DNA of 64,000 nt, from positions 29,933,250 to 29,997,249 of the forward strand of contig NC_069369.1 in NCBI RefSeq assembly GCF_021730395.1, written 5' to 3'. This document shows, in pieces, positions 13,440-64,000 of this stretch; the first letter of the stretch is position 1; every line of letters starts with the position of its first letter. The translations under genes and the position numbers were made by a program. The DNA is from Mercenaria mercenaria (lineage: Eukaryota). Under the pieces are notes generated by a model. That model was not told where the DNA came from. It did no database searches and saw only the letters and a list, made by a program, of their open reading frames with translations.

Positions 13440-13600
13440 CCAGTTCGTATCCCATATTACAACAGCTTGATCTGGGATGCTGTATTCGGCTCTCATGGAA
13501 TTTGTCAGGACGGATCACACTCGGCGCTTGCGCGCCTCGTGAGACCCGATCTGGCAAAAATCCACTCGAACCGAATACAACATTCCAGATCGAGCTACTA
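13440..13600. mobile_element. Foldback MITE (24-bp inverted repeats GATCTGGGATGCTGTATTCGGCTC plus an internal GC-rich palindrome) at the left edge of duplication copy A
   Basis: Near-identical copy at 48556-48700, which is the left edge of copy B. A shorter copy lacking the internal palindrome is at 48070-48160. Confidence 0.6.
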
Positions 13601-13941
13601 TTATAATAACCCTGTCATCTAGTTCCAGTTTTCCGAATAAACATCTTTTTAAAAGATACAAAAATATAATACAAGATGAAATCAATATAACAACATACGA
13701 CAAAAATATTGAAGTAGACACAAAACAAACGCTGTTTTAGGGCAAATATGTGAAATTATAGAATAAAATTCATTGAATTATGCAATACAAATTAATCAAC
13801 ACACAACATAAAGATTACTATTGAATTTGAACATATGACATGCCATAAATATGGAGTCCTAGTAATTGTTAAGTAAAGCAATCGTAGAAAATAAATAAGG
13901 AGTCTTCAAACTGAACGTTGAAAAAGCAAGACTTGTGTTCA

Positions 13942-14103
13942 CTAGAGACGTTTTATTTTTAACGCAACAACAGCACGACTTTCTCTGCCCGCTCCGCCCT
14001 CACCATGGCACGTGTAGTTGCCTTCGTCATCTATCGTCGCTTTAATTATTTGGAGCTGTATAAAGCGTACTGGAAAATACTCGCTCTCCTTTTCGTCGTC
14101 GAC
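13942..14103 (-). CDS. IgSF gene copy A terminal exon (stop at 13942)
   Basis: Acceptor ttttag|GTCGAC. Encodes VDDEKESEYFPVRFIQLQIIKATIDDEGNYTCHGEGGAGRESRAVVALKIKRL*. AATAAA is embedded in the last codons. Confidence 0.55.
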   Translation of the reverse strand, partial: VDDEKESEYFPVRFIQLQIIKATIDDEGNYTCHGEGGAGRESRAVVALKIKRL

Positions 14104-14361
14104 CTAAAAAGGTATTAGATCGATTTACTTAACCTAAAAAGACATACATACGGACGTTTTGCTTAAAGTGTTAGAATCTAAAATGGAAAATACATTTTAC
14201 AAAATCATTGTCGCATGGTATTATCGTTTTTTTTCTAAACGTTTATACTTACTGTTGATTTACAGGGGACTTAATGTAGTAAATGAAAAAAAATCCTTCA
14301 ATTCAAAGTTTGTAAATTGTAAATACTCCACAACTATCATGATACATGAGAATTAACATAC

Positions 14362-14516
14362 CTCATATCTCCAGTTGTCCCATTCAATCTTTTCGCCTTT
14401 ATGGTCAGTCCAGAATGCTTTTTGTAGCGGATAAGCTTGAACAGCACAGCCCAATATCACCTTTTCACCTCCGGTAAAATAAACCACAGGTGCCATCACC
14501 GCAACTTCAGGTGCAA
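14362..14516 (-). CDS. IgSF gene copy A exon 5
   Basis: Encodes APEVAVMAPVVYFTGGEKVILGCAVQAYPLQKAFWTDHKGEKIEWDNWRYE. Donor GAG|GTATG. Confidence 0.55.
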
Positions 14517-16368
14517 CTACAACAAAACAACAGAGTCTGCTTTTTAAGGTATATAAATATTATGGTTTGGAGAGAATAACTTTAGAATTACATGATAACC
14601 ACATTTTGAAACTGCCCTATAAAATTATTTTAGCCAGAGAATTATATTGTGAATATATTTTACACGTTTCCTATCGATTTTATTTCTTTTGCTTATTATG
14701 GTGTTTTGCAACCTCCAATCGAGTGAATATTCTCGAATTCTTTACTTCATGGACCATTGTTTTCCAAAGTATCTTATATCAAAAAGTTCAAAAGAACTAT
14801 GAGTCTAACATGTACCCTTAACAACTACTCCAATGCAACACTTGTATTTCTTGGCAATATCTTAAATTAATAAGCAGTTGAATTTGTTCACATTTCAAGA
14901 ATAATATTCTGCATTTATCAAATTCAACGTTGAAGAACATTCAGTAATGGAAGGACATGTTCATTTTCAGTCGATTTTTAATAACGGACACACACACACG
15001 CATGCATGCACGCACGTACGCAGATTCTGTGTTTGTTTTTTTATATAAATAAAAGAAGCAAATACCATTTATAAGAAAATTAAACAGTACCTTTACTTTT
15101 CACTAGATATGCTTAAAGTAAAGACGAAAATATAATTTGTTCTAATGATCTAATGCGTTGGAGCACGAAAACTATATTTTTTGTATCTTTTCTAGATATA
15201 TATGTGCATTTTCGTGTCTTTCAAAAATGGGTTCAATGAAATTAAATGATGGCATAAATTTTGTTGATAAATTACAATAAGTTTACCAACATATTTAGTT
15301 CTAAAAATGCGTGAAAGTTCTAGAGAGTTTTTTTTGGTCAGTTATTAATATACTGGTAAAATAGAAAAGGTTTCGTTAAGACGTTCTGAAGTGTATAACA
15401 AACAAATTAAGTGCATTTAAATTCCCCGACAAATAGGTTGTTTTGTGAATGAGGGAAATATATTTTGGAAGATATTTATTTTTCAGATATATTTATGAAG
15501 TTTAAAACATTTAACATCAATAACTCTGCCGTTACTGAAGAGATCCTGGTGAAATATGAGCATGCACTACCGCCATATAGTGACGCATATTTGGGTTAAG
15601 TTTCATGAAGATCCATCAATGGAATACATTTATGAATAATTATTATAAAACAATTAAAAAGCAATAATTCTGAAGTTACTTAAGTGATCCTAACGAAAGT
15701 TGTGCGCGCACCATCTAATATAGTGATCTGCATTTATGTAAATTTTCATGTTCATTTTATGTATTCAGTTATACTTTTTAGTACAGGCTAGAGAATTTAA
15801 CACGGGCTTGGCTAACAACTTTATTTTAGCCGATGTTTTCGCACTGTTCCGTTGTACTGCTACCTGGGACTTGCAGCAAAAGGGCCCTCGTTTTCTGATA
15901 GATATTTCATGAATGGGAAGAGCTAGAGACTTGAGGTCGACCTCATTTTGTAACTAAATGAATATACATGAAATAGAAATACAAGTTTATGAAATTGTTT
16001 GGAGAATTGGTTTCACAACGGCGTGGGAAGCGAAGCCTTTTCTCGGAGACTCGAACATCGGTTTCTAGCATTCTTGTATGATATATATCATTTAAAAGGG
16101 GTTTATTTTCCACTACATATTTTCCTTCCTTCTTGCTTGATTTAGGATGAAAACAGGGGGTTTTATCTGGTCATATTTTTTTTATTCAAGTTCCGACACT
16201 CGTGCCTGTGATTACTAAAAAGACTTTTTGAATTATGAACATTTTCACTTTCGGACGGACGCGCACCGACGGAAGAACAGCCGGATGGACAACGCCAAAT
16301 TTGTACTCCGCCATCTTCGGCGGGAGATAACAAGTACCATATAACCAAAACCGCAAAATTCGACTTAC

Positions 16369-16497
16369 AGTCCACGAACACCTGCATATGACTCTCGGAA
16401 GTTCCGTGTCTGTTTTTGGCAATGCAAGTGTACTCGTCACTTGCGTACCTTGTGATATTTCTGATGATCAGCTTGTGTCCCTTTATACCTTCAATAC
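16369..16497 (-). CDS. IgSF gene copy A exon 4
   Basis: Encodes IEGIKGHKLIIRNITRYASDEYTCIAKNRHGTSESHMQVFVD. Donor GGACT|GTAAGT, anchored by track ORF 16163..16387. Confidence 0.6.
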
Positions 16498-17291
16498 CTT
16501 TAATTAAGAAGTTGTTTTACTGAGTGAGAACATACTTTAAAATATCGCCCAAAAGCATTTTTTTCCATTCGGTGCATGTCATTTTTATTTACTCAAATCA
16601 TGCATATGACGACTTTGGACTAAGAAATCAAATATATAGATGATATTGCACGAGTGTCTTTTCATACTGAATCTACTAAACGAGTTGAATAAAATTAAGA
16701 ATAAAAAAGTGCCAGGCTCTGTCGAGTCCTTTATCAGTTCTGTTCAAAGAGTTTAATAAATTCAATGTGGAAAGACCCAAATGTACAGTCAAACTTGTGT
16801 TAAAGACCATCTCTGAACAGAGACCATCTGGCTCTAAAAACCACATGTGTTGTTTCCCATTCTAACATTTACAGTGTGTTTTAACCTGCAAATAAAGACC
16901 ACCTCCCAATAAAGACAACATTTTGGCTCTCCTAAGGGTGGTCTTTGTAGACGTAATATTCTTTTTAGCACATGTCAGCTTCTCCTGCTGAATTAAAAAA
17001 ATCTTCTTCCTTTACCTAAAATAGACCAAGTAAATTCGTCCAATGTACATACAGTCTGCTGAAATTAATCGATTTGAAACTTGTAATTCCCAACATTTGT
17101 AGAAATTCTTCATGAAATTTTTATGGTCATAACTCCTCAAAACTAACCAAAACGGACGAGTCTAGTGAATTGTGTTTCTCTAAAAACAAGTTTTCGCAAA
17201 TACTTTGAAATTAACTTATACATGTATACAATATTGGTCTACCAGGTGCTTCTACTTGAAAGCCTGTCCATCTCGAAATCACTTTATCAGT

Positions 17292-17577
17292 AGGTCTTTA
17301 GGTCTTCAGAGGGTGAAAAACAAGGAAAAATATCCAACAGGGAAAGCCAAGTTCAAACAACGCAACCTCCCCAAAGACACACACGAACAACTCTCGCACA
17401 CCACACACAAAAATGAATACAAAATGACAAAACAAACAAATACAGGAACACAGTGGGGCACCGCCTTGGAACGGCCAGTGGCAAAAGCACACCTGGGGAG
17501 TTTAAACCGGTTTATGGTGCACCTAACCTCACTCTTACCCCCACCATGTTCCAAAGTCACAAGACAGTGTTAATATG
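17292..17577. mobile_element. SINE-like insertion present only in copy A
   Basis: Absent from the collinear copy B site near 52760. Related copies at 29590-29760 and 63880-63960, sharing CAGTGG...TTGGAACGG.CAGT...GTTTAAACC.GTTTATGGTGCAC. Confidence 0.45.
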
Positions 17578-17621
17578 AAATTTGATTATAATGAAATAGT
17601 GGAATAAAGCCTTGTTCATAC

Positions 17622-17759
17622 GTTCCTTTGACGGTCCACGGCACCACGTTATTTCCGGTTCCGGTATGCCGGTGAATTCACAATTCAGTTGCGCCAGTGA
17701 ATTTTCAAGGATTTCGGTACGAGTAGAAGAAGATGAATTCTTGTTTAATCTTGGCTCAT
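17622..17759 (-). CDS. IgSF gene copy A exon 3
   Basis: Encodes EPRLNKNSSSSTRTEILENSLAQLNCEFTGIPEPEITWCRGPSKE. Acceptor taatttcag, donor GAAC|GTATGA. Confidence 0.55.
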
Positions 17760-18394
17760 CTGAAATTAAATAATGATCAAACTACTACAATGTTTCTCAA
17801 GCAATATACTTTCTGTTTAAAAGTATAGGAAGTCATTGTAACATGTCTCAGTAGCATTATTTATCATCTATTAGAAATGTTATTTATTTGGGTACTTAAT
17901 GATGTTATAGGATAGGTTTGATAATCTAATGACAAACACAAATATGTTCAGACACCATAATATTTTTATTCAATTAAAACCTAACAATATTTTAAGTGAT
18001 TCTACTACTGAGCTGGCTATTCAAAGACTAACCAAGCACGCATCACTCAACCTGTACTTTAAACGTAATCACGTGTTTCATTTGCTGCAATTGATATTTT
18101 ACGTTTTCCCATTTCATATAGAAGACTACTTCGGCCGGTGCTAGGGATAGAGAGGGTTCTTGCGCATTGCATTACCTTAATCAAACCGAGTTTGCTATTC
18201 TATTTGTTTGCGTCATATGCTTCCAAAGGACTTTCTAGCAGACCTAGGATATGTTACATAGATGACTTACATTGTAAGAGGACTGATCCAAAAGAAATGT
18301 CATCAGAACAATAAAAAGTTTAGAATGAAAAGAAAACGACAACAATTCATACGCAAGTACTTTAATCTATTTGCAATACTTTTTGAAAATATGC

Positions 18395-19215
18395 TTAAGC
18401 TAGCATCACATTGCACCGGATGGACTTGTGGATGAGTTCCGGATTCCCAATCCCGGATGGCTCCGGATGTGTAAGAAAAAAAAGGAGTTTGCGAATTCGT
18501 TACGTTATAAATCTCTATAACACAACCTTAATTAACATTTTTAGAACTGGAATAAAATATCTCGTATTTTTGACCACAGTGATAGTCTTCCAGACTGGAT
18601 GACTTACGAATGAGTTTGGAGTTCTACGGAAGCGTTACCGACATCGTTGACTTGTACGAGCATGGTACGGAATTTTTGAATTTGTAGAGGACTCAGGAAC
18701 TCATGTTTCACCGATTTCCCGAGTTCTCTTTGAGCTCGTAGAGATTTTCGAAGTTGGGAATTTGGAGCAGCTCGCAAGAGCCACGAACGGAAATCGCATA
18801 GGCCCCGGAAGAGTTTGTAAGGGCATCGCACGATGTCCGTACGGGTTTGCAAAAACTGCGAGGCTTGCGGAGAGCGTGCGATGTCAGCACGGGGCTCGCA
18901 TGGCGTTACGATCGCTATACGGGCTCCGTACGACTTCTTTGGTAATTCAAGGTGGTATAAAAACAAGTACGTACGAGTGCCGTGCGAGTGCCTTACGAAC
19001 CCACGAGCACCGTACGAGGTACGGCCTGGCTCCTTGCGAGCTCCGCACGACTTGTCTGCGATGTCCGTACTGATATCCTACGATTGCATCCTCTAAAGAT
19101 CGTACGGGGCCCGTAGGTACTGTGACGAGACACAACGATTGTACAGAGACAGTAAAGATTCTAAAATTGGTAGACCCGTATGATTTTTTAAATCCGTACG
19201 AGCATCGTATATTCA
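18395..19215. other. GC-rich insertion of about 0.8 kb full of CCGTACG motifs, copy A only
   Basis: Eight or more CGTACG/GTACG occurrences. Copy B instead carries an unrelated 150 bp at 53490-53640. Track ORFs here (18604..18966 and others) are probably GC-composition artefacts. Confidence 0.4.
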
Positions 19216-19840
19216 GCACTACATAATGAACGTTAAAGGATATCACTATAGTTTACATGGTTGACCATTAAAAGATGTAACTAATATCGTTATAATTTTA
19301 TATGAGTGGGTGGGTGTGTTAATTTGATGTCAATTGGTAATTGTCTGTCTTTTTTACTGTTTATAAAACACCATTATTGCGTGTGGCGAAATGTCGTCAG
19401 AGTGATCTTTGAAGTTTTGTATATTTGAAACGGAACAATAGAAGAAAATATTCATCAAAGGTATCCTTAATGAATTGGTTTTACACTTATATCTAATTTT
19501 TGTAACAATACAACGATGTATAAATGCGACGAGGTGACATTACTTATGGATAAACCCCGTATATCGCGTGACATAAAGGGATACATGCTCGTGATTCGTC
19601 AAGTCCAACTTATATCTTTATCTGACAATTACAAGGCAATGTGTAAACCAGACAGAGCTCATTTGTGGTCTTTTGGACTGCCTCGGCATTAAAAAACGCG
19701 TGACAATCGTAAAAATGAACCACTAATGCACCCTTATACACAAAGAAAATATCAATGTAGTGCACGTGGGAGAAGAATGCAAATGTAGATCTGACAGAAA
19801 TACAAAGTATATGCTATAGAATCACATGCACAATACGTAC

Positions 19841-20042
19841 GTTCAATGACAACTGTTATCTCCGAGAGCGTATGGCCGTCTCGAGTTTTACACCAGTATG
19901 TGTCAGCAAAGCTTAGATCAATCCTCAGTATATGGAGTTCCCACTCATTCCTTGCTGGCTTATTTATCATGAGATTTCTGGTATGCTTATATACTTGCAT
20001 ACCTTGCGTGAGCATCTCATTATTGCCGTTAAACCAACTAAC
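19841..20042 (-). CDS. IgSF gene copy A exon 2
   Basis: Track ORF 19752..20015. Acceptor ttttctttttag, donor GAAC|GTACGT. Encodes VSWFNGNNEMLTQGMQVYKHTRNLMINKPARNEWELHILRIDLSFADTYWCKTRDGHTLSEITVVIE. Confidence 0.65.
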
Positions 20043-20049
20043 CTAAAAA

Positions 20050-21545
20050 GAAAACAAGAGGGCCAAGATGGCCCTAGGTCGCTCACCTAAGAAACACACC
20101 ATAACAGTGTAAACATGTTAGACCTAGTGATTTCATGGAAACAAATATTCTGGCCAATTTTTATTAGGATTGGACCAAAAATGTGGTCTCTTGAGTTTAA
20201 ACAAGTATTTTGTTCGATATGACCTAGTGACCTAGATTTTGACCCTAGATGATCCATATTCAAACTTATCCTAGATTTTATGAAGGCAATCATTCTGACT
20301 AAATTTCATGAAGATCAATTGAAAAATACGGCCTCTATCGCATACACAAGGTTTTTCATTGATTTGACCTAGTGACCTACTTTTTAACCCATATGACCCA
20401 TATTCAAACTCGACCTACACTTCATCAAGACAATCATTCTGAATAAATTTAATGAAGATTAATTAAAAAATACAGCTTATATCGCATACACAATGTTTTT
20501 CTTTGATTTGACCTAGTGACCTAGTTTTTGACCCTAGATAAACCATATTCAAACTCGACCTAGATTTTATCATGGCAGTTATTCTTACCAAATTTCATGT
20601 AGATCAATTGAAAAATACAGCTTCTATCGAATACACAAAGTTTTTCTTTGATTTGACCTAGTGACCTACTTTTTGACTCCAGATAACCCATATTCCAAAT
20701 CCTCCTAAATTTCACCAAGGCAATTATTCTGAATAAATATCATGAAGATCAATTGAAATATACAGCCTCTATTGCATACACAATATTTTTCTTTGATTTG
20801 ACCTAGTGACTTACTTTTTGATCCCAGATAAACCATATTCAAACTCGATCTACAGTCCATTTTAACTGACCTAGCGGGGCGTGGTTTCGCGACGGTCCAC
20901 TGCATTATTGTGAAGTGTATGTAATACATTTGGCAACCTGATTTTTTATTCACTGGTCATCTACCTGACATTGTAACCACTGTAGCTCTACCTATTTTGC
21001 TCGTGTTTTGAGATTACCATTATTTGCATAAGCCAGAGGTTAACTCCACCCCGCCATTTCAAATAAAACGCACTATAGATTTCATCAAGGCCATCATTCC
21101 GACTAAATTTCATGAAGATCGATTTAACAATACAGCCTCTATCGCATACACAAGGTTTTTCTTTGATTTGACCTAGTGACCTACTTTTTCAATCCAGATA
21201 ACCCATATTCAAACTAGGCCTAAAATTTATCAAGGCAACTATTCTGATTAAATTTCATGAAGATCAATTGAAAAATACAGCCTCTATCGCATACACAATG
21301 TTTTTTCTTTTATTTGACCCTGTGACCTACTTTTTGACCCAAGGTATACCATATTCAAACTTGACCTAGAATTCATCAAGGCAACCATTCTGACCAAATT
21401 TCATGAAGATCAATTGAGAAATACAGCCTCTATCGCATACACAATCTAAATGTTGACATAGTATATTACGACAAAACGACAGACAGACAGAGGACAGACG
21501 CCGGACGCCGGACATCGAGCGATCACAATAACAGCAACAACAAAA
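20050..21545. mobile_element. Composite element with a 185-bp satellite array (20090-21480, about 7 copies) inserted in IgSF intron 1 of copy A only
   Basis: 5' AAACAAGAGGGCCAAGATGGCCCTAGGTCGCTCACC. 3' ...GGACAGACGCCGGACGCCGGACATCGAGCGATCACAATAACAGCAACAAC. Copy B runs straight from exon 2 into the shared downstream sequence. Confidence 0.6.
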
Positions 21546-21839
21546 ACAAAATAAAAACAAAACAACAACATACAGAGTTTGCTTTTAAAAACATTCACTT
21601 ACAATAATATAAAACTGGAATATTTTTCCTTGTGTTCGTTGTAATTTTCATCATTCTCTTTCAATCTTATATGTTGACACTAGCACGATACAAATATTCA
21701 TCCATGTGCTATATTTAAAGTAACATAAAAGTAAGGTTTATCAATAAAATTTGTTAAATCCTGTGGAAGAATGCAACTAGATACTCGTTTTGACTGAACC
21801 TTTTCATGACAGGTAATGCAAAAATTATGATATACTTAC

Positions 21840-21946
21840 AGTAACATCCCTAAATGGCTCCAGTCTGCAGGGCAGTTTACATAAATTGTTCAACACACAT
21901 GGTTTTGTCATTTCATAAGCTCCCACAGCCGTTTTCATGTTACTCA
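21840..21946 (-). CDS. IgSF gene copy A exon 1
   Basis: Encodes SNMKTAVGAYEMTKPCVLNNLCKLPCRLEPFRDVT, donor ACT|GTAAGT. Homologous to the plus-gene exon 1. Confidence 0.55.
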
Positions 21947-22093
21947 CTTAATAAATGATTTAAAACTCTGTCAATACATAAACAGGACGGAGAGGTGTCT
22001 TAAAAGTCTTTACAGAAATACGTAAAGAAATTAAAATGTTTAGATATGTAACTGTTAAGACCCGGGTGCAACTCGAAGGAAAAGGCGCGCGCG

Positions 22094-22094
<1 letters not shown>

Positions 22095-22131
<37 letters not shown>

Positions 22132-22135
22132 GAAA
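22095..22135. repeat. (AC)n microsatellite of about 19 units, copy A only
   Basis: Direct read. The track ORF 22000..22227 is produced by it. Confidence 0.9.
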
Positions 22136-22603
22136 AAAAACAACAAAACAGCAACAAAAAATATCTTCATATTCATGATCCTTGTATCTAATATAACGTT
22201 TGGTTCACAAGTACCACTTACATCCAAAAATTGTCAGAATAATACCGCAATGATCCCGACTGAATAATCCTAAATCCAAAATTCTAGTAATTAGAAAGTT
22301 AACATTTATCATGAGAACAAAGATATTCAGTTACTTCAAGTAACTGTTTGGACACAGCATTAACGTCCTAGGGTGTGTCAGCAATTGTTCAATTCAGCAA
22401 TTGTTGTGGCAGAATTTATATGACGTTCATAAAATGCACTTTATTTGAAGCATAGGTGTTTATACTGGAGATGATATTTTTACAATTTGCGCTAAATGGT
22501 CAAGTCACCCGGATGAGCGACTTATTTAATCTACATAGAAATAAATGTTAGTAGAACAACTACGCAATAACATTTGTCAGAGTACAAAAATAAAAATACG
22601 TAC

Positions 22604-22655
22604 CCATGAATGCTACAGTCTGTATCCATAGTAACAGTATGCGTAGTAGTTCCAT
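22604..22655 (-). CDS. IgSF gene copy A, signal-peptide exon
   Basis: ATG GAA CTA CTA CGC... gives MELLRILLLWIQTVAFM. Donor ATGG|GTACGT is phase 1 and matches the phase of exon 1. Conserved in copy B. Confidence 0.5.
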
Positions 22656-23689
22656 TAGTCCAGGAAATATTCTACAAGTTTCCATAAACACCGATAAAGA
22701 ATATATTTGTTAATTTTTACATACTTTCACTCACAATCTATGAATGATGATATATTATGTGTTCATAAGTAGTTACATCCGATAAACTATTACAAAATGA
22801 CGAAAGATAATGTTAAACAAGAGAATCATAATGGCCCTAGACCGCTCACCTGGGTTTCACAGATTAATTTAACGATTTTGATGATGCCACGCATAGAAAA
22901 TATCTATGATATTAATAGGGAAAATGGACCAGTGTTTTCTGAAAACAATCTGGGATCTGTTATATGCATATATGAATTATACACCGACATCAGTCTTTAG
23001 AGTCCATTAGAAATGAATATCTATGCCATAAAATCCTCTTAAACAGCACTTTCTGAAAAGCTTTGATCTCTGACTCTAACGACTAGACAAATGCGACTTG
23101 AACTGGGCAGAATTCTTCCCAGCTAATAATTACCATAAAATCGGAAATCATTGCAACTCTGTTCATGATGTAACAGAAATTTGGTTGACTCCAGTGCCAT
23201 GGATCATAGAATCCTTAATGACCTTCATAGTCTGTATAACGAAGTGCTTGTCAATGGGTACTTTGAAGCATTTGACATAAGGAGATACACGAACAATGTA
23301 TACTTCACCGAATATACAAAATGAACTTAAAGGTATTTGTGGCAAAATAATCTGCGATGATCTTGTGCAGGAATCAGATATTTGGCTTAACATTTCCTGT
23401 TCCCATGTATAAGTATGGTTGCAATATCCGACAGAAGCTGGCCGAGGAATGGCAAGTACCTACTGACTTTCAAAAAAACGCGGTTGCTGTGTCTGCGGGT
23501 GCGTCTGGTCCGTTACGCTGATGACCATGTTTTCTTATCTAAGTACCGCACACACATTGCCATTTGCTCTGTTTTAGAAGACTTTCATCGGCAATAAAAA
23601 TCCGAAAAAAATCCGATTGGTTGCATGCTTTCACTTTCGACGTCGGCGAGAAGCAACTGCTAAGAGAGTATGTGGACGGTTGCGAGTGT

Positions 23690-40420: not shown

Positions 40421-40445
40421 ATATATTTGCCTTATTTTCTTTCAG

Positions 40446-54370: not shown

Positions 54371-54654
54371 CTACAAAGGAAATAATAATACAACTACAAC
54401 AACATACAGAGTGTGCTTTTAAAAATATTCGCTGTAATTTTCAATATTCTCTTTCAATCTTATATATTGATACTAGCACGATAGAAATATGCATCCATGT
54501 GTTATCTAAAGTAACATGAAATGAAGATTCATCAATAAAATTTGTGAGATCCTTTGGAAGCATCGCATGCAAACAAACAAAGTGATAACTGGAGACTCGT
54601 TTAAACTTAACCTTCTTTTCATGACAGGTAATGCAAAAATTATGATATACTTAC

Positions 54655-54770
54655 AGTAACGTCCCTAAATGGCTCCAGTCTGCAGGGCAATTTACACGAA
54701 TGATTCAACACACATGGTTTTGTCTTTTTTATAGTGTCGTAAGCTCCCTCAGCCGTTTTCATGATACTCA
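54655..54770 (-). CDS. IgSF gene copy B exon 1
   Basis: Encodes SIMKTAEGAYDTIKKTKPCVLNHSCKLPCRLEPFRDVT. Donor ACT|GTAAGT. Confidence 0.55.
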
Positions 54771-55526
54771 CTTAATAAATTATTTGAAACTGTGTTAATA
54801 CATAAACAGGACGGAGAGGAAGAAAGTGTGTTCAAAGTCTTTACAGAAATCACGTAAAGAAATTAAAATGTTTAAATAACTGTTAAGATCCGGCTGCAAC
54901 TCGAAGGAAAAGTCACAAAAAAACCAGTAACGAACAACATTTATTCAAAGATTTTGTGAGAACTGCACTATCAGAATAGAATACCTGACACATATAAGCA
55001 TTGAAAAGAATATCTTCATATTCATGATCCTTGTATCTAATATAACTTTTGGTTCACAAAGTACCACTAACATCCAAAAATTCGAAACAATTCGAAACAT
55101 GATCCCGACTGAATAATTCTAGTAATTCTAGAATTAGAATTTAATATTTATCATGAGAACAAAGATCCTCTGTAACTTCAAGTAACTGTCTGGACACAGC
55201 ATTTTTATCATACGCATAACGTCCCAGGGTGTGTCAGCAGTTGTTAAAAAGGCAGAATTTATATGAAGTTCACAAAATGTACTTTATTTGAAACATTTGC
55301 ACTTGTCTAGTTTTCAGCTTACAAACATGATTTTAGAAGATCTTAGTTTTCAAATGTGACTTTGCTTTAAAGCAAAAATAATTTATACTGGAGATGATAT
55401 TTTTACAATTTGCGCTAAATGGTCAAGTCAACCGGATGACCGACTTACTTACTCTACTTGGAAATAAATGTTAGTAGAACAACTGTGCAATAACATTTGT
55501 TAGAGTACGTTAATAAAAATACGTAC

Positions 55527-55578
55527 CTATGAATACCACAGTCTGTATCCATGGTAACAGTATGCGTAGTAGTTCCAT
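55527..55578 (-). CDS. IgSF gene copy B, signal-peptide exon
   Basis: Encodes MELLRILLPWIQTVVFI. Donor TAG|GTACGT is phase 1. Confidence 0.45.
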
Positions 55579-56112
55579 TAGTCTAGGAAATATTTCAAGT
55601 TTCCATAAACACCGATACAGAATATATTTGCTAATTTACATACTTGCACACACAATCTTTGAATGATAATATATAATGTTTCCATAAGTAGTTTCATCCG
55701 ATATGACGTGTGCTCTGATCAGAAAGATAACAAAGTTAAACAGTAGGGCCATGATGGTCCTAGATCGCTCACCTGAGTTTTCCAGATTACTTGAACAATT
55801 TTGATGATGCCACGCTTGTAAAATATCTGAAATTATTTGGAAAATGGACCAGTGTTTCTGAAAAAAAAATCTGGTCTGTATTATATGCATATATAACAAT
55901 ATCTCTTATCTCTGACCCTAACGACTAGACAAATGCGCCTTGAACTGGGCAGAATTCTGGCCAGCTAATAATTACCATAAAATCTGAAATCATTGCAAAT
56001 TTGCTAGTTCATGATGTAACAGAACCATTGGTTGACTCCAGAGCCATGGATCATAGAATCCTTAATGGCCTTCATAGTCTGTATAACGAAGTGCTTGTCA
56101 ATGGGTACTTTT

Positions 56113-57820
56113 TATTACCAGATGAACAATATAGGTGTTAATCAACTTTACTTTATTAAACTTTCATAAATGTATAATCTTTAAAATGTAAATAAAGTAG
56201 GTATGAGTATTTAAAAATGTGTTATGTTAAATCATGCTTGAGATGAAGTTACAGTAATTTCCTGTAACTATTTAATACTTGATCTGTATGTAGGTTAAAG
56301 GTTGATGATAACAACTATTACTAATGGGAGAAAGCTTATTGATCTTTGACATTTCATTTTTTTCTCATTATTAGTAAAATGATGAAATGTCATAAAAATG
56401 TTTCTTTTGTAGAAGTGAGATGTTTTTGATTTTTAAACATTTCTGGTTTGGTTATTTCGGTATATCAGTGGTGTTGTAGAGTATAGGATGTGGTATTTGT
56501 GGATGGGGAAAGCAGTTTCCGACTTTGCCACGCGCCAAATACCTGTACTAAAAACAAAAGCTATTGTCTCTAGCATGGGACAATGTCCATGCCTTCAATT
56601 TTCCAACCAGGTAAATGTCTAGGCGTTATTGTCTCTAACATGGGACAATGTCCATGCCTTCAACTTTCCAACTAGGTAAGTATAGGCGTTATTGTCTCTA
56701 ACATGGGACAATGTCCATGCCTTCAACTTTCCAACCAGGTAAGTATAGGCGTTATAGTCTCTAACATGGGACAATGTCCATGCCTTCAACTTTCTAACCA
56801 GGTAAGTATAGGTGTTACAAAATCAGGCTCAGTCTTCGGTATTTTGCGGAAGAGACTGTTTGACACTCTTCTGAATTGTTAACATCTTAAATATTCTACC
56901 GATTGTTACATGTAATTAAACGTATGAAAGATCCAAAAAACAAATACTTGTAGAAGTGTTTTCGGTAAGTTTGACGGTCAAAATGACAGCATGTTACTCT
57001 CATATTTTTCTTTGTGTATACTGCAAGAATCAAATATGGATCCGTCTTAGAAATCTATTGCAGTAGAAAGCATTTTTGTCAGTATTATCAATTTTGAAAT
57101 GAAAATGATAACGGACGTCTTTTTACATTGTTACGTGAGTAATGCAACATAAATAACTTGTAGTATAGTTACTTATGGTCTATGAATTTGTTTTTGATTT
57201 AATTGTAGATACATCAGTGGGACAATGCGATTGGCCCAACCTGCTTGGTATATCTTTTTACATTTTTACGTATGTAATGCAACATAAATGATTTGTAGTA
57301 TAGTTACTTATGGTCTATGAATTTGTTTTTGATTTAATTGCAAGAACATCGGTGGGAAAATGCGATTGGCCTAACCTGCTTGGTTTATTTCCCACAAGTG
57401 GTTAAGATATTGAATGAGCAGTGACGACGTGTTTTGTGGGCCATGTAGATTGTTGTGTATGTGTGTTGATGGTAGGGGCGGTAGACCTAATATGTAAGGC
57501 ATTTTTCACATCCGTTGTTTGTAATTGGAATAACGTGGTCAAACTCAGAAACATGAGACGTAAGAGGCCCGTGGCGTCAGAACATTTCATTGCTGTCATG
57601 AATGGTAAACAAAAATACATCAAGAGCAGCATTTCATCTCAATAATAATTATAACACCATCGTTGGATAAACCTGGAAAATTTTCTTTAGTATAGTTGAC
57701 ACTTTAATACTGTGTGGAAAAAAAATGTTGCATGCATTAATTAGAGACCATGGCGAAGTTTCCGGGAATTTATTATGCTCTGCTTCAGTTCCAGGCCAAG
57801 CATAATGCGCTACTGCGGAA
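56113..57820. other. Copy B-specific 1.7-kb segment containing a 63-bp tandem repeat (56555-56820, 4x) and a 125-bp duplication (57095-57400)
   Basis: Copy A joins the same flanks directly near 23255. Confidence 0.6.
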
Positions 57821-60169
57821 GCATTTGACTGAAGGAGATCCGCGAACAATGTATACTTCACCGAATATACAAAATGAACATAAAGGTATTTGTGGCAAAA
57901 TAAACTGCGATGATCTTGAGAAAACATACAATTAATCTGTTTTTTTTTTCGGATTTATTGCCGATGATGCCACAGATTCTGCTACAACAGAGCAAATGGC
58001 AATGTGTGTGCGGTACTTAGCCAAGAAAACATGGTCATCAACGCAACCGACCAAACACACCCGCAGGCACAGCAACCGCGTTTTTTGAAAGTTAATATGT
58101 ACTTGCCATTTCTCGACCATCTTCTGTCGGATATTGCAACCAGACTTATACATGGGAACAGGAGATGTAAAGCCAAATATCTGATTCCTGCGCAAGTTTA
58201 AAATATTAATTAAACTAAATATTCCGTACATTATAAAACAGTGCTTTTTTAAAGCGGTAGGTCAATGAATATCTATCAGATATAGTGCATTATCTAACAT
58301 CTTACACATGCATTATGTTAATGTTTAACAGCATTTGGTGATGTTGTGCAATTTCCTATCATTTTAGGTTCGCAGAGTAAGTTAACCTGATGGTATTTTG
58401 AGAGAACCGTATATTTAGAGCAAATCTCAACGTCGACGAGGAGCAATTCCTAAGAGAGTGTGTGGACGTTGGAGAGTCTGATGGACAGACGTCAATCTAG
58501 GTGGCGCCATCGCTGTTGAATCACTTGAAGAGATCTTTGCTTTAGCCAGCCGTGTCTTTCATCCAAACATAAGGAAGTGCTTTACAATTCTGCTGGTTAT
58601 GCGAGTATCGACCGCAACAGAGGAGCACTCCTTTTCATCAAGTGTCGCTTGAAAATCTACTTGAGTAGTACCAAGAAGATTTAAAAAAACACTTTTCCGT
58701 GGTCATACAGAAAAAAACTAACTCTTCCCGCTGACAGCAATGTTTTACACGAATCAAAATGGCTAGAAAGACTTTGTAGAGTGTCCCCAAGAGATATTTC
58801 AGTACAATTGTTTTAAAATCAAGCTAATGGTTTCTGAGAAGAAGACTGTCATAGTTTTCCATATAGCCATATTGGGAAAACTAGCGACAGTCTTGAGGCA
58901 ATGTTCTTCTATGGAAGAATATAATTTGAAGGAATTTGACAGAGCGTCACCAAGGAAACATTTCTGTGAGATTATTTCAAGATTGGCCAGTAGTTTGTAA
59001 GACAAAGACTTTTAATGTTTTTCCTTTTGGTTGCCATTACAACCAGACAGATGACCAAAAGGTAAAGGGGAACAGTCAATGAACATTCCTGCGTGAAGTT
59101 TGGCTGACATTGGCTTGGTGGTTTAGGAGATATTTTTTAAAGTAATTGTGGATGGACAGATGAGCGACGGACATCAAACAATTATAAAGCTCACCATGAG
59201 AACTTCTAAAATCTCAAACAAAAAATCTTTACAGCCGCCAATACCAAAGTAAATGATCAAGTACAATACCGTGGATATTTGAAATAAAACACAGTCAGAT
59301 GAGCTAAAAACAGAATAATCAAAGTTAAAAGTCAATACATGCAGAATTATGGATTTTGAGAACAACCTAATAGGTCACTTACATTTATGTTACTAACCTC
59401 AACACTGTCAGGTGGGTATGTGAGGAGCGTCCCCTTCCAAGTTGTGAGATATTTTTATTTTGCAAATTGCGCCATAAGTGACACGATTTCCTTGCATTTT
59501 GATACCATATAACCAATTATATCAGGACGTTATTTGTGCCAATTTCTGTCCTGTTCTCAAATGTGTGTATATAGTGTCCAGGAACTTTTCAATTCCAGCT
59601 ATAAAACAGTCAATAGTTTTAATCAGTCTAGTGTAATGAAAAAACTACTTGCTTTTATTTTTATATCAAATCATTATTTCAAGGTAACATTTCTATTTAT
59701 CGTGGTGATATTAAAACAAACAGAGCTATCCATGATTATGTAAGAAGATTTATTGACTAGGAAGGTTTTGTTCCAAGTTTGAATCCAGTTTATGCAGCTG
59801 TTAATGAGATAACTTTAACCAAATTGCCTATGTCGACAACATTAATTTCAGGACAAGAGAAATCTAACTTGATTGAAATTTGAATGCAGAACACATAAGT
59901 GTTAATAAGGGGGCGGAGAGGCTGGGATTTGTTTTTAAAAAATGTCCAGTCTTTGGAGTTGCTTGAAAAACATTATCTGGCTTCAACATATTGAAAAAAA
60001 ATTTTGACTCCCAAATCACTGAAAAAACAAAACAAAACAATTTCCTTGTCAGATTTCAAAAAAAAAAAAAAAAAATAAAAAAATGAACATTACTCAGAAA
60101 GCCATATTCTTTGTTTCGAAACTGCTTTTAGTTTTAATATTTTATAATTATATAATAAGGTTAGTGTAT

Positions 60170-62095
60170 ATATCATAACATAACACTTTTTTCTAAATTA
60201 TTAAGGAAGAGCAGCATTACTATCAACGTTCAAATATTAGTCACTGCTAAAGAAATGTGTCAAATTGGTTTTGTGTAGTGTAATTTTGACTGCAATATGT
60301 TATACTGATAATTTCAGTATATGAACAGTAACATAGGCTTAAGAGAAGGGAGGTGGGGGAGGGGAGCACCATCTTTTGAATATTATATTTTCTTCCTATT
60401 TATAAGACGGTATTGATAATTATATCCTAAAAGCTCCCTAAGATTCAGCATATTCAAAACCATCAGTTCTGCAGTAATACTACAAGGATCTTGCACCCTA
60501 TTAGATTTCTAGTTAAAATGCTCTTTTTTATCAAGTTTTGTTGACATTATATAACTTAAACCTAAAGTAATCGACAACCATAATTATCAGTGTTGAAATC
60601 CCCTTCAGGATTTTGCATACACAAATTGCGGAATTTTATGAGGGAAGGGCCCCCGTATCCCCCTCATACAGAAATAATACAGCACTTTCCCAAAATAAGA
60701 TAACCATTTTATTAAGAATAGCTCTCAAACACATAGAACAGAAGTGTGAATAACAGTGTTTATAATTTTAACACTTTATATAAAAATTCATTTGAAATAC
60801 TTAAGCACTAATCTTGTGAAACTTCAGTTAATGAAAGAAATGACTTCATCTTATAACTCAGCAGAATGCAGGATTTAGTGTTTAAAATACAAAAATATTG
60901 CAGGATTGTGTTTCCCCTCGAGTCGTCTCCCCTACCCTCTTACACCATACTATAGTATACATACACACATATATAATACTGTGCATACACTATCTGAGTA
61001 AGAGGTGCACCCAACGCACCATTGTTCCTAAAACCTGCAAGCATACATTCTTAAAGCCTATAATTCAGATCTCAGAGCATTGAACATAATTTCGCTTGCT
61101 ACGATCGCAGAGCTGTTATCAGAAGTAATATATTAAGCTGAAGTCCAGGAGAGACCCACTGTCTTCTAGTTATACAATATATTTTGCTTTTTCTCCATTT
61201 CTCTACCCAAATTACTCAATACAGGATGTGTATAAGTATAACACATGTAAAAAATATCTTTGGCTTACTGTGAAAAAATATGATGGCTTTCAACTTTTGA
61301 AAAAAGTTCTGGCTTCCATAGAAGGCAAAAAAAAAAAGGTTCAAATGATCAGACCCTAAGTTAGATATGTCTCCTAGAAACAAAATTTAAGGTGAATGTT
61401 GCAAACAACTTCACATTGTCATCAGATAAATACAGCTAAGATCAGTACTGCAGAATTTTGATTTGAGTACTTGTTTTCAAATTTAAATTTACAACACTGT
61501 TCCTTAAATATGTAATACTATTCCTTTTTTCGTCAGCTTCAGTAAAATCACGAGTGCAGACCTGTTATAATATACGCCTATCGCAGCACCTTTATTCAGA
61601 ATTTTGATAATCTCTACTTCTTAACCTTTAGCCTGCTGACAGCAAGTGATTTTGCCTTTTGCGACCAGCGCAAACCAAGTTCAGTCTGCATCGTGTAGGC
61701 TGATCATGGTATGCACTGTTCGCTATTCAGTTAGTTCATTTTCAGCGAACATTCCTTTGATTAATAAATGGTACTATCCAAATTGGAAGATGGACCAGTT
61801 CATTTTAGAAATTTAGCAGGGTAAAGGTTAAATGGAGAATGTCAATTTTCTCAGTTTTGACTTATTCAAAGGCTATACCCCAGATCTCAAACTCGACTTT
61901 TTTTTATAGAGATACACACATTCTGTATAAGTATGATGAAGATCATGGAAAAACGGTATACACATGTTTTAGCAGAAAACTGGCATTATTCAAGATATCT
62001 TAAAAATTTAGAACTCACGAAGACCTTTAGAATGAAATAGTTAATTCTTGAAAATTGAAACTAACAAAAAAGCTCTGTGAAGGACATTAAGAAGT
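60170..62095. other. Copy B-specific segment of about 1.9 kb, including the inverted piggyBac-like MITE at 61625-61830
   Basis: Copy A flanks abut near 26900-27046. Confidence 0.55.
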
Positions 62096-64000
62096 GTATG
62101 TTTATACTCTTTGTATGAGGAAATAATGGACATGCTTAATCACATCAACGTCATTTTCATGAAACATGAGAGAACATGATGGAGGCGAGATAACTAGTTT
62201 CTCCACGAAACTGAATGACAACTTACCACTGCGAATAACAAATTACCACTTATTATGCTATAAAAAATATTAAACTTTCAGGATGACATATAATTCATTA
62301 AATATTTAACGTTCATCTTTATACAGCTATCTCATGCTATAGGTACTTGTATGGTGTCTTTATTGTGCTTTATTGTTTAAATACAAAAATCATACATTTC
62401 TGTGTTTTGTTGACTCCAAATGGTATATTAAACATTTTACAACCAAATTTGGACACTCTTACTAAAGACCAGCTGGTACATGTGCGACTGAAAGTGCTGG
62501 AGATTGTTATAAATTCCTTCTCCAAATAAAAATTTCGTATTCAAAGGTATCATATTCAAAAGGTATCTTTTCACAGATTTAAAGACATCTTGGCGTAAAG
62601 ACAAATTACAGACTTATGTCCTGGAACGGAATTTTGTAAAACCGGTTAATATATCAGTGAAGTATGGGTAAAATTGTAATTCAAAAGGTACACTTAAATT
62701 TGAAATCAGAACTTTTTAAAGTATGTTATCATAGTCTTAATATATCAAGAGCGGATGCATCATCACTTGTAAACATCTTACAGTCCTACTTGGGACATCG
62801 GTCAACAGATGCACAATTTTCGGCTCGCTTTAGCTTTATATCAGTAATATTTAAAACAATTGCTGAAGTGGAAGACACTTATGACCGTCAAATTAACCCT
62901 TAGCCTGCTAAGTTTCTAAAATGGACTGGTCAATCTTTCAGTTGGGGCAATACTATTTATTATTCGAAGGGGTGCCACTGAATGAATAGCGAACCGTGCA
63001 GACCATGATCAGCCTGCACGGCACGGATGTTCAGGCTGATCTTGGCCTGCACTGGTCACAAAGGCAGAATCACTTGCCGCCAGCGGCAAAAAGATAAAAG
63101 ACTATGAATATGGCCATATTGCTGTTATAATCTACAAATTCAAAGATTACTGGTACATGTACATGCTCACTCTCAAACATGTTTCTGTTGTCATTAATAA
63201 ATGAAACAAGAAATATCTTTTAAAAAAGATGCTCGGCGCAGTGTAGTTGGGAATAGGCTGTATAAATTTGAAGAGTTTTCCCATGAAAAACTTGACTCTG
63301 AAGGTTTGTTATTATGAAAGGGGTCCATAAAGAAATGAAAGAAAAAAATATGTCCAAAACTGGAAATGTGGTAAGTGTTTGAAGGTCAAGGTGAAATGTT
63401 TATACATAAATGTGAATGGCTTGATCTACCTGTCCACAATGAAAAAAATGACGAAAACGGTTATTTTTATTGCACGAAAGCCATACTCATGTGATTGCCA
63501 TAGCCCATTCTTCCGTAGCTCAACCAAACACGGGCTACCTACTTTCGTTTTAGCCATACCTTTCAGATCTACTCCAAGAATATCGTATTTCAGATTAAAA
63601 TCATCTGCAATGGTTCTTTTCTACAGCTGAACATCAAACGAGAAAAAAATACTTGCACGAAAATGGATATAGAGAAGTTGGTCACCAGAAACCCGTCTCA
63701 ACCTGGTCGACTTAAATCGATTGCGCATGAAAACCACACCTGTTAATGTAACAAGCAGTATACATGTAATACATACATGTACTAGATATACGGTCGTACA
63801 TAGACATACTTATATATATTTGCTAAATATACTGACCAACACATAACTCAAAAACCGCAAACAATGTCATTCAGCATTTCATTCAGCATTGAACAAGGCA
63901 CAAGTGAAACAATCGAACACTTTCATCCAATTAGCATTTTTCGTGTAGCTAAAAGTACAAATTATCAAGCAATCCGATTTGCCAACTTAGCCGCGTGGTC

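What the first reader, a model, noticed from the sequence alone, without database searches (positions are those of the whole stretch)
13440..64000. Diverged tandem segmental duplication of 16 kb or more, each copy holding an intact 7-exon three-Ig-domain gene
Copy A (13440-29760) and copy B (48556 to window end) are collinear, and all seven coding exons keep the same phases and open frames in both. The exons differ from each other by roughly 10-15% at protein level (E2 ~85% identical). Each gene has a signal-peptide exon followed by three Ig domains split across two exons each. So both copies look functional, not pseudogenised, and the family is expanding locally. Differences between copies concentrate in loop-like stretches such as the tail of exon 5 (...EKIEWDNWRYE vs ...IKIERNNWQYE). 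Diversification of an immune or adhesion receptor would look like this.
Basis: seen in the sequence. Interest (0 to 1): 0.7.

Follow-up and report, generated by a model that had tools for sequence, protein, structure and literature searches.

The report
Duplicated clam three-Ig secreted-protein genes
This stretch of hard-clam (Mercenaria mercenaria) chromosome holds a real, fairly recent direct duplication of at least 16 kb. Each copy carries an intact 7-exon gene for a small secreted three-Ig-domain protein, and an older inverted paralogue lies between them. It is an ordinary, already-annotated, lineage-specific gene-family expansion and shows no sign of unusual diversification.

Summary
Window 13456-29607 and 48553-63953 are collinear direct repeats, about 11% mismatched in aligned blocks and broken by many kb-scale indels. 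The genes lie on the minus strand. Both have seven exons with canonical splice sites, identical phases and open frames (314 and 316 aa, 86% identical).

It has the same exon plan and is about 59% identical. My models for B and C are identical to Mercenaria mercenaria RefSeq proteins, and A matches two RefSeq isoforms. A fourth gene, D (89% identical to C), lies on the same chromosome outside the window. The duplicated unit is therefore probably a 35.1-kb head-to-head pair (A+C giving B+D).

For A-B, dS = 0.12, which equals the non-coding divergence, and omega = 0.57. The two lineages evolved at equal rates and kept all family-invariant residues. Differences are not significantly enriched in loops. 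This points to relaxed purifying selection, not diversifying selection.

The proteins have a signal peptide and three Ig domains, with no transmembrane segment or GPI tail. By sequence profile and by fold they are closest to DIP/IgLON ("Wirin") adhesion proteins. Homologues exist only in heterodont bivalves. Interest is low to moderate.

The parts
13456..29607 (.). Copy A of the duplicated segment. The left boundary is sharp. The right limit is set only by where copy B runs off the window.
   Evidence: Collinear BLASTN chain to 48553-63953. Boundary alignment.
48553..63953 (.). Copy B of the duplicated segment, truncated by the end of the window.
13942..22655 (-). Gene A (RefSeq LOC123546824). 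Seven coding exons: 22604-22655 (signal), 21840-21946 and 19841-20042 (Ig1), 17622-17759 and 16369-16497 (Ig2), 14362-14516 and 13942-14103 (Ig3 plus stop). 314 aa. RefSeq starts 10 codons upstream, at 22685.
   Evidence: Splice-site and phase analysis. Matches XP_053407115/117 isoforms outside the exon-5/intron-5 alternatives. Each of exons 2-7 is hit by orthologues from other bivalves.
49025..55578 (-). Gene B (RefSeq LOC123546823). Exons: 55527-55578, 54655-54770, 54169-54370, 52823-52957, 51823-51951, 49415-49569, 49025-49186. 316 aa.
   Evidence: The translation is identical to XP_053407113.1 / P0001.
32294..40613 (+). Gene C, an older inverted paralogue lying between the two copies. Exons: 32294-32345, 34073-34188, 34493-34694, 35058-35195, 38498-38626, 38869-39020, 40446-40613. 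318 aa.
   Evidence: Ig-motif scan. tblastn/blastn of A against the central region. Model identical to XP_053407110.1 / P0005.
13455..13605 (.). Foldback (MITE-like) element forming the first ~150 bp of the duplicated block. Its counterpart is at 48542-48717, with further related arms at 48045-48109.
   Evidence: Inverted-repeat search and boundary alignment.
20058..21634 (.). A-specific 1.58-kb insertion in intron 2, made of 145-bp tandem repeats. It is one example of the kb-scale indels that separate the copies.
56112..57817 (.). B-specific 1.7-kb insertion upstream of gene B, absent from copy A (junction at 23264/23265).
23362..23632 (.). A ~270-bp segment that is inverted between the copies. 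It matches B 58196-57920 in reverse orientation.
   Evidence: No flanking inverted repeats were found.

Best explanation
**What the window is.** It is a piece of a Mercenaria mercenaria chromosome carrying a lineage-specific cluster of genes for small secreted three-Ig-domain proteins (314-318 aa).

**History.**
1. Shown: an old inverted duplication (dS about 0.87) produced two diverged gene types arranged head to head, the A/B type on the minus strand and the C/D type on the plus strand.
2. The duplication is shown; its unit size is inferred. A much younger direct tandem duplication (neutral divergence about 0.12) copied a block that starts at 13456 and repeats with a 35.1-kb period. It created A and B, and most likely also C and D as one two-gene cassette.
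3. Shown: since then the copies have gained many transposon or satellite indels and one small inversion. Both coding sequences stayed intact. They evolved at equal rates under relaxed but real purifying selection (omega about 0.57).

**How the proteins probably work (inferred).**
- They are secreted. They have a signal peptide and no membrane anchor.
- They form an extended rod of three Ig domains, like DIP/IgLON proteins.
- They probably act through homophilic or heterophilic Ig-Ig binding, as soluble adhesion or recognition ligands.
- Retention of both young copies is best explained by dosage, or by early subfunctionalisation, and not by an arms-race type of diversification.
For: **Duplication and gene models.**
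- Duplication and boundaries.
- Exon models with canonical splice sites and identical phases in A, B and C.
- B and C are identical to RefSeq proteins, A matches its isoforms, and D is on the same 85,987,162-bp contig with consecutive accession numbers.
- There are no other relic exons in the window, and orthologues hit each of exons 2-7.

**Age and selection.**
- A-B: dS 0.124, dN 0.071, omega 0.57. A/B versus C: dS about 0.87, omega about 0.33.
- Non-coding Jukes-Cantor (JC) distance of 0.12 equals dS. Fisher p = 0.037 for dN < dS. Exons are more conserved than non-coding sequence, p = 3e-4.
- Divergence is uniform along the block, so this was a single event with no obvious conversion tracts.
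- Relative-rate test is symmetric: 10 vs 11 aa changes and 31 vs 29 nt changes. All 28 family-invariant residues are kept.
- A-B is 85.6% identical and C-D 88.7%, which fits one shared event.
- The tree is ((A,B),(C,D)), nested within heterodont-bivalve homologues.

**Protein.**
- Pfam I-set/Ig_3/ig hits are above the gathering thresholds.
- No family member has a hydrophobic C-terminal tail.
- The AF2 model has pLDDT 88 and shows three beta-sandwich domains.
- The best full-length matches are DIP-eta/alpha/theta and then the IgLONs, both by sequence profile and by Foldseek (top 11 hits, TM 0.57-0.77).

**Context.** Tandem duplication is pervasive in this genome (PMC7831173, PMC8905726). DIPs and Dprs are reported as expanded in molluscs (PMC6525511).
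Against: - Gene D could not be placed. No tool gave the chromosome sequence beyond the window. The 35-kb two-gene unit is therefore an inference from the period, the untruncated collinearity and the similar A-B and C-D divergence.
- RefSeq lists no full-length isoform for gene A, only an exon-5-skipped form and an intron-5-retained form. My 314-aa product for A is a prediction, although its splice sites are identical to those of B.
- Omega of 0.57 rests on 73 substitutions, and the p-value is only 0.037.
- No expression or binding data were available, so the function is inferred from homology at about 20% identity to DIP/IgLON.
- The absence of a GPI or TM anchor departs from those families.
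Confidence: 0.8

Rival explanations
1. Assembly artefact: copies A and B (and C/D) are two divergent haplotypes of a single locus that the assembler wrongly placed in tandem.
For: - Bivalve genomes are highly heterozygous and rich in presence/absence variation.
- The copies lie side by side with the same orientation and period.
- I could not check read depth or a second assembly.
Against: - Neutral divergence of about 12% is roughly nine times the 1.34% k-mer heterozygosity reported for this species (PMC7831173).
- About 40% of the block cannot be aligned because of kb-scale indels and an inversion.
- The proteins differ at 14% of residues and by two indels (3 codons in exon 2, 1 codon in exon 4).
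- RefSeq annotates separate loci, each with its own isoforms.
Confidence: 0.03
2. Adaptive diversification. The young duplicates are immune-type recognition molecules under positive selection, with changes focused on the binding loops.
For: - There is a local cluster of 5 replacements in 13 residues in Ig3 (B residues 249-261), and exon 6 has omega = 1.23.
- There are N-terminal Ig1 changes, including a 3-residue indel.
- Bivalve immune gene families commonly expand in tandem (PMC8905726).
- Omega rises from 0.33 (old pair) to 0.57 (young pair).
Against: - Overall omega is below 1 (p = 0.037).
- The exon 6 value rests on 2 synonymous and 9 non-synonymous changes and is not significant.
- Loop versus strand enrichment is not significant (odds ratio 1.4, p = 0.32).
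- Both lineages evolved at equal rates.
- The closest relatives by sequence and fold are neuronal adhesion proteins, not known immune IgSF proteins.
Confidence: 0.1
3. One young copy, most likely A, is an incipient pseudogene or mis-spliced gene, and only B makes a full-length protein.
For: - RefSeq lists only an intron-5-retained isoform (287 aa, lacking Ig3) and an exon-5-skipped isoform (281 aa) for A. B has a canonical 316-aa isoform.
- A has an extra unpaired Cys (TWCRG).
Against: - A's ORF is intact through all seven exons.
- Its exon-5 donor and exon-6 acceptor are the same as in B.
- All family-invariant residues are kept, and A has not evolved faster than B.
- Exon-skipped isoforms are also annotated for B and D.
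Confidence: 0.07

Closest known systems
Wirin family: Drosophila DIPs (DIP-eta/alpha/theta) and vertebrate IgLONs (OPCML, NEGR1, neurotrimin, IgLON5)
   Same: - Both have a three-Ig ectodomain of about 300 aa arranged as an extended rod.
- DIPs and IgLONs are the best full-length matches. By profile, DIPs score 132-148 bits and IgLONs 96-117 bits, each as a single stretch covering all three domains.
- By Foldseek, the top 11 PDB hits are DIPs and IgLONs.
- PMC6525511 reports DIP/Dpr expansions in molluscs.
   Different: - Only about 20-22% identical.
- There is no C-terminal hydrophobic GPI or TM signal, whereas DIPs, Dprs and IgLONs are GPI-anchored (PMC10863630, PMC6525511).
- Phylogenetic placement inside the Wirin clade and conservation of the Ig1 dimer interface were not tested.
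- Homologues detectable at full length were found only in heterodont bivalves.
Drosophila Amalgam (secreted three-Ig protein). RefSeq names gene C 'protein amalgam-like'.
   Same: A secreted protein made of three Ig domains with no membrane anchor (own knowledge of Amalgam).
   Different: No direct comparison with Amalgam was run here. The RefSeq names for the four paralogues are inconsistent (NCAM1-like, VEGFR1-like, amalgam-like, hemicentin-2-like, IgSF10-like), which shows they are generic Ig-domain best hits and not orthology calls.
NCAM-type gene organisation (each Ig domain split over two exons)
   Same: Each Ig domain is encoded by two exons with an intron in mid-domain. Domain boundaries fall on phase-1 introns. 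This is the classical layout of NCAM and related I-set adhesion genes (own knowledge).
   Different: The gene is much smaller (three Ig domains only). It has no fibronectin III repeats, transmembrane exon or GPI exon.
Tandemly expanded gene families of bivalves (C1qDC, TNF, IAP in M. mercenaria)
   Same: The process is the same: recent local duplication producing clusters of paralogues in a TE-rich genome (PMC7831173, PMC8905726).
   Different: - A different protein family. Neither genome paper mentions Ig genes.
- The expansion is small (four genes).
- The duplicated unit appears to be a head-to-head pair of old paralogues and not a single gene.
Invertebrate immune IgSF proteins (insect hemolin, molluscan defence molecule)
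   Same: These are soluble multi-Ig proteins of invertebrates. Hemolin appears among the profile hits at 80 bits.
   Different: Hemolin scores much lower than DIP/IgLON and matches only part of the profile. It has four Ig domains in a horseshoe, whereas this model is an extended three-domain rod.

Membership tests
Immunoglobulin superfamily (I-set / Ig_3 domains) | Pfam Ig-domain models matched above the curated gathering score, with the Cys...Trp...Tyr-x-Cys core in each domain. | tested here: met
   - I-set scores 82.8 bits against a cut-off of 23.7, and Ig_3 scores 79.6 bits against 30, in A, B and C.
- The C/W/YxC residues are invariant across 13 family members.
- The AF2 model shows three beta-sandwich domains.
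Tandem segmental duplication | Two collinear copies in direct orientation on the same chromosome, similar well beyond the exons. | tested here: met
   Introns and flanks align at about 89% identity over matched bases, throughout 16 kb.
Tandem segmental duplication | The copies abut, so that the end of unit 1 joins the start of unit 2. | tested here: inconclusive
   - The gene copies are 19 kb apart with gene C between them.
- This is consistent with a 35,097-bp unit (13456-48552) abutting unit 2 at 48553.
- The right part of unit 2 lies outside the window, and D could not be located.
Wirin family (DIP / Dpr / IgLON / Lachesin / Klingon) | An ectodomain of two or three Ig domains only, in an extended arrangement. 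| tested here: met
   - There are three Ig domains and nothing else.
- The whole-chain superposition on DIP and IgLON crystal structures gives TM 0.57-0.77.
Wirin family (DIP / Dpr / IgLON / Lachesin / Klingon) | Membrane attachment by a GPI anchor, signalled by a C-terminal hydrophobic sequence (PMC10863630; IgLONs likewise). | tested here: not met
   - All four clam proteins end 20-21 residues after the last Cys with charged tails (KIKRL, KIKRF, KVKDFG, KVKDVG).
- The homologues from Ruditapes, Mactra, Mya and Dreissena have similar tails.
Wirin family (DIP / Dpr / IgLON / Lachesin / Klingon) | Monophyly with Wirins to the exclusion of other IgSF families (Nectin, Necl, Kirrel, Nephrin and others) in a phylogeny (PMC6525511). 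| not tested
   Only ranking evidence is available. DIPs and IgLONs are the best single-stretch full-length hits. No tree with reference Wirins and outgroups was built.
Wirin family (DIP / Dpr / IgLON / Lachesin / Klingon) | Ig1-Ig1 binding through the GFCC'C'' face, with a conserved hydrophobic core. | not testable with these tools
   This needs a residue-level interface comparison or a binding assay.
Genes under diversifying (positive) selection | dN/dS above 1 overall or in a domain, with replacements concentrated in the binding loops. | tested here: not met
   - Omega is 0.57 overall.
- Per domain it is 0.40, 0.63 and 0.73.
- Only exon 6 exceeds 1 (1.23), which is not significant.
- Loop enrichment gives p = 0.32.

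The most novel reading that the evidence does not exclude
The four genes may be a bivalve-restricted, anchor-less offshoot of the DIP/IgLON (Wirin) adhesion family. In this reading the two old paralogue types (A/B-type and C/D-type) are a heterophilic binding pair, analogous to Dpr-DIP. They would be kept head to head and duplicated together as a ligand-partner cassette, so that new cognate pairs arise in a single step.
Probability: 0.08. Interest if true: 0.55.

Novelty: new member of a known kind. Interest (0 to 1): 0.25.

Why it matters
- It adds one small, cleanly resolved example to the well-known pattern of recent tandem duplication in bivalve genomes. Here the family is a secreted three-Ig family most similar to neuronal wiring proteins (DIP/IgLON). 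The two hard-clam genome papers do not mention Ig genes, and no paper in the searched library mentions these loci.
- Practically, it shows that the RefSeq names for these four loci (NCAM1-like, VEGFR1-like, amalgam-like, hemicentin-2-like, IgSF10-like) are generic and inconsistent for what is one paralogous family.
- If the two-gene cassette model and a heterophilic A-type/C-type interaction were confirmed, the locus would be a tidy system for studying how binding partners co-duplicate. That is speculative.

Tried and rejected
- Getting the chromosome sequence beyond the window, to place gene D and test the 35-kb cassette: exact-product look-ups for P0006, P0001, P0004 and P0005 found nothing on record.
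It was rerun with database proteins only.
- The first AF2 model, built from a 3-sequence alignment, was unusable (pLDDT 42.6). It was replaced by a 13-sequence run (pLDDT 88).
- The raw tblastn comparison of A versus B could not separate exons from introns, because the introns are also about 89% identical. The diverged paralogue C solved this.
- Hydrophobicity-based search for the signal exon gave many false candidates. It was resolved by A/B conservation plus a shared GTACGT donor, and later confirmed by RefSeq proteins.
- Rfam and tRNA scans of the window found nothing.
- Pfam on the other long ORFs found nothing apart from an integrase core and a hAT remnant.
- No inverted repeats flank the small inversion.
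- Literature searches for the locus or accession names returned nothing.
- Considered and rejected:
  - Haplotig artefact, because divergence is about 9 times the heterozygosity.
  - Pseudogenisation of one copy, because rates are symmetric and the ORFs are intact.
  - Recent gene conversion homogenising the exons, because dS equals the non-coding divergence.
Full report

Yes. The window has 35% G+C and is rich in satellite arrays. Self-BLASTN gives a chain of collinear, same-orientation matches from 13456-29607 to 48553-63953.

- After chaining, 9.4 kb of the 16.2 kb in copy A aligns to copy B.
- Mismatch divergence is 5.5-17% per block, about 11% overall. It is fairly uniform, which argues for a single event with no recent conversion tracts.
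- The rest of the block is copy-specific insertion or deletion. Examples are a 1.58-kb array of 145-bp repeats in intron 2 of A (20058-21634), 819 bp in intron 3 of A, 998 bp at 23884-24881, and 1.7 kb in B at 56112-57817.
- One segment of about 270 bp is inverted between the copies (23362-23632 versus 58196-57920).
- The left boundary is sharp at 13456/48553. It opens with a ~150-bp foldback, MITE-like element.
- On the right, homology continues to within a few tens of bases of the window end. The duplication is therefore cut off by the window and has not been seen to end.

**2. Gene models.**

The coding strand is the minus strand. A and B introns are nearly as similar as the exons, so a plain A-versus-B protein comparison could not pick out exons. 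An Ig-motif scan then revealed a third, more diverged copy on the PLUS strand between the two (about 32.3-40.6 kb). Comparing A with this copy lights up only the exons.

Three-way alignments and programmatic assembly give the same 7-exon plan in all three genes:

- Exon 1 is a 52-nt signal-peptide exon ending in phase 1.
- Two exons follow for each of the three Ig domains.
- Every exon has an AG acceptor and a GT donor.
- Exon lengths are near-identical: 52 / 107-116 / 202 / 135-138 / 129 / 152-155 / 162-168 nt.
- A stop codon comes right after Ig3.

The products are 314 aa (A), 316 aa (B) and 318 aa (C). A tblastn search of 14 family proteins against the whole window finds no further relic exons, and each of exons 2-7 is hit by orthologues from other species.

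**3. Independent confirmation and source.**

The word-indexed search of 5.8 billion proteins returned only seven hits, all from Mercenaria mercenaria and all on one 85,987,162-bp contig. From:

| Gene | RefSeq match |
|---|---|
| B | My model is identical to XP_053407113.1 (LOC123546823, 'NCAM1-like X1') |
| C | My model is identical to XP_053407110.1 ('protein amalgam-like X2') |
| A | LOC123546824: XP_053407117 (exon 5 skipped) and XP_053407115 (intron 5 retained); both start 10 codons upstream |
| D | XP_053407111/112, 88.7% identical to C, not in the window |

The accession numbers of the four genes are consecutive. The window therefore comes from the annotated hard-clam reference, and these loci are already annotated, though under inconsistent generic names. 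No paper in the searchable library mentions them.

**4. Ages and selection.**

Nei-Gojobori estimates:

| Comparison | dS | dN | omega |
|---|---|---|---|
| A-B, whole gene | 0.124 | 0.071 | 0.57 |
| A-B, Ig1 | 0.165 | 0.067 | 0.40 |
| A-B, Ig2 | 0.144 | 0.091 | 0.63 |
| A-B, Ig3 | 0.081 | 0.059 | 0.73 |
| A/B versus C | about 0.87 | 0.29 | about 0.33 |

- Exon 6 alone gives omega 1.23, but on only 2 synonymous and 9 non-synonymous changes.
- Non-coding divergence in confidently aligned blocks is 0.12 (Jukes-Cantor), equal to dS. Synonymous sites therefore behave neutrally and conversion has not homogenised the exons.
- Exons are significantly more conserved than non-coding DNA (p = 3e-4), and dN < dS has p = 0.037.
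- With C and D as outgroups, A and B have accumulated equal numbers of changes: 10 vs 11 amino-acid and 31 vs 29 nucleotide. Both retain all 28 residues that are invariant across the 13-member family alignment.
- Using the strand and loop assignment of a confident AF2 model (pLDDT 88), A/B differences are not significantly enriched outside strands: 22/126 versus 22/170, odds ratio 1.4, p = 0.32. It lies in exon 6, not exon 5.
- Conclusion: both young copies are maintained by relaxed purifying selection, and there is no statistical evidence of diversifying selection.

**5. Architecture of the locus.**

The gene order in the window is A(-), C(+), B(-). A and C are head to head, about 9.6 kb apart, and C and B are tail to tail. 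The supporting facts are:

- The period at the left boundary is 35,097 bp.
- Nothing to the left of 13456 resembles the sequence to the left of 48553.
- Collinearity is still running at the window end.
- C-D identity (88.7%) is close to A-B identity (85.6%).
- The family tree is ((A,B),(C,D)).

The simplest history is therefore as follows. An old inverted duplication made a head-to-head pair. A recent tandem duplication then copied a ~35.1-kb unit containing both genes, giving A-C-B-D. The second step is an inference, because I could not retrieve the sequence beyond the window.

A haplotig artefact is very unlikely. The 12% neutral divergence compares with a reported heterozygosity of 1.34% (PMC7831173), and about 40% of the block is unalignable.

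**6. What the proteins are.**

- Pfam finds I-set, Ig_3 and ig domains above the gathering thresholds.
- There is an N-terminal hydrophobic signal.
- There is no transmembrane segment or GPI-type hydrophobic tail. The proteins end 20-21 residues after the last Cys, and so do their homologues. They are predicted to be secreted.
- An exhaustive HMMER profile search of 1.84 billion representatives is dominated by giant multi-Ig proteins. It also finds a set of 304-334-aa proteins that match the whole profile in one stretch.
- These come from Ruditapes philippinarum, Mactra antiquata, Dreissena polymorpha and Mya arenaria, plus four ~1.2-kb contigs from public sequencing runs. One of these, L001, is a 1,241-bp contig with an uninterrupted 327-codon ORF, so it is most likely a spliced transcript.
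- Identities to the clam genes are 29-47%. Ruditapes and Mactra also show locally clustered copies, judged from consecutive accessions and locus tags.
- The family is thus a heterodont-bivalve family. The four Mercenaria genes form one clade that is younger than its split from the sampled Ruditapes and Mactra genes. The species split is dated at about 179 Mya (PMC7831173).

**7. Closest known kind.**

- Against PDB sequences, the single protein and the 13-sequence profile both find Drosophila DIP-eta, DIP-alpha and DIP-theta (132-148 bits) as the best single-stretch, full-length matches. Vertebrate IgLONs follow (96-117 bits).
- Foldseek on the AF2 model puts DIPs and IgLONs in all of the top 11 places, with whole-chain TM scores of 0.57-0.77. 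The predicted rod-like arrangement of the three domains therefore matches as well.
- These proteins form the 'Wirin' family, reported to have expanded in arthropods and molluscs (PMC6525511).
- Membership is not established. The GPI anchor typical of DIPs, Dprs and IgLONs (PMC10863630) is absent (tested, not met). Phylogenetic placement and the Ig1 interface were not tested.
- Functionally I infer Ig-mediated homophilic or heterophilic binding by a soluble three-Ig rod, as in the secreted fly protein Amalgam (own knowledge). An immune-recognition role is a weaker alternative.
- The two-exons-per-Ig-domain layout is the classical NCAM-type organisation (own knowledge).

**8. Verdict.**

The finding is real and the gene models are right in substance. 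The locus is an ordinary, already-annotated example of recent tandem duplication in a genome known for it (PMC7831173, PMC8905726). The useful additions are:

- the overlooked inverted paralogue C;
- the probable two-gene duplication unit;
- the quantitative rejection of diversifying selection;
- the assignment of the family as secreted, DIP/IgLON-like and restricted to heterodont bivalves.

Interest is 0.25. Novelty: a new member of a known kind.

Noticed in passing
window 1647-2357 (-): A 236-aa ORF matches the integrase core domain PF24764 (rva_4) at E = 8e-66. It is a transposon-derived or domesticated integrase fragment, upstream of the duplicated region.
   Followed up: partly
window 23670-23963 (+), counterpart near 58427-58673: Remnant of a hAT transposase C-terminal dimerisation domain (PF05699, E = 4e-5). 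It lies in a block shared by copies A and B, so the hAT insertion is older than the A/B duplication.
   Followed up: partly
window 23362-23632 vs 58196-57920: A ~270-bp segment inside the duplicated block is inverted between the two copies. B has about 230 extra bp next to it. No flanking inverted repeats were found.
   Followed up: partly
window 43301-44855: A 73-bp satellite with about 21 copies (88% matches) lies in the spacer between gene C and copy B.
   Followed up: no
window 27732-28601 (A) vs 62756-62974 (B); related copy at 32670-32844: A 256-bp unit is tandemly amplified to 3.4 copies (96% identical) upstream of gene A. It is present once at the matching place in copy B, so the amplification happened after the duplication. 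A related copy lies upstream of gene C.
   Followed up: partly
window 7492-8185, 20208-20852, 21076-21445: A family of ~145-bp tandem repeats occurs both in the left flank and as an A-specific insertion in intron 2 of gene A. Other arrays with 157-168-bp and 333/500-bp periods lie at 276-736, 2658-3045, 3610-4395 and 5794-6954.
   Followed up: no
window 13248-13427: A palindromic ~21-bp microsatellite (AAACCGCAAGATGCG motif, with many nested inverted repeats) lies immediately left of the duplication boundary in copy A. It is absent at the B boundary.
   Followed up: no
genes A, B (window) and D (RefSeq proteins P0002, P0003, P0004, P0007): - Annotated isoforms skip single symmetric half-Ig exons: exon 5 in A and B, exon 4 in D. 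This leaves half an Ig domain in frame.
- Gene A also has an intron-5-retained isoform.
- Gene A has no annotated full-length isoform, although its splice sites are the same as in B.
   Followed up: partly
gene A exon 1, window 22656-22685 vs gene B 55579-55610: A has an in-frame upstream ATG (METCRIFPGL...), which RefSeq uses as the start. In B a 2-bp deletion puts that ATG out of frame, so the conserved start is MELLRILL.
   Followed up: yes
gene A exon 4 (residue in TWCRG, about window 17640): A carries an extra, presumably unpaired, cysteine where B has Tyr and C/D have His.
   Followed up: no
L001 (Logan contig SRR12737806_52619, 1-1241): A 1,241-bp contig with an uninterrupted 327-codon ORF, 44-47% identical to the clam proteins. 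It is most likely a spliced transcript of a family member from an unidentified species.
   Followed up: partly
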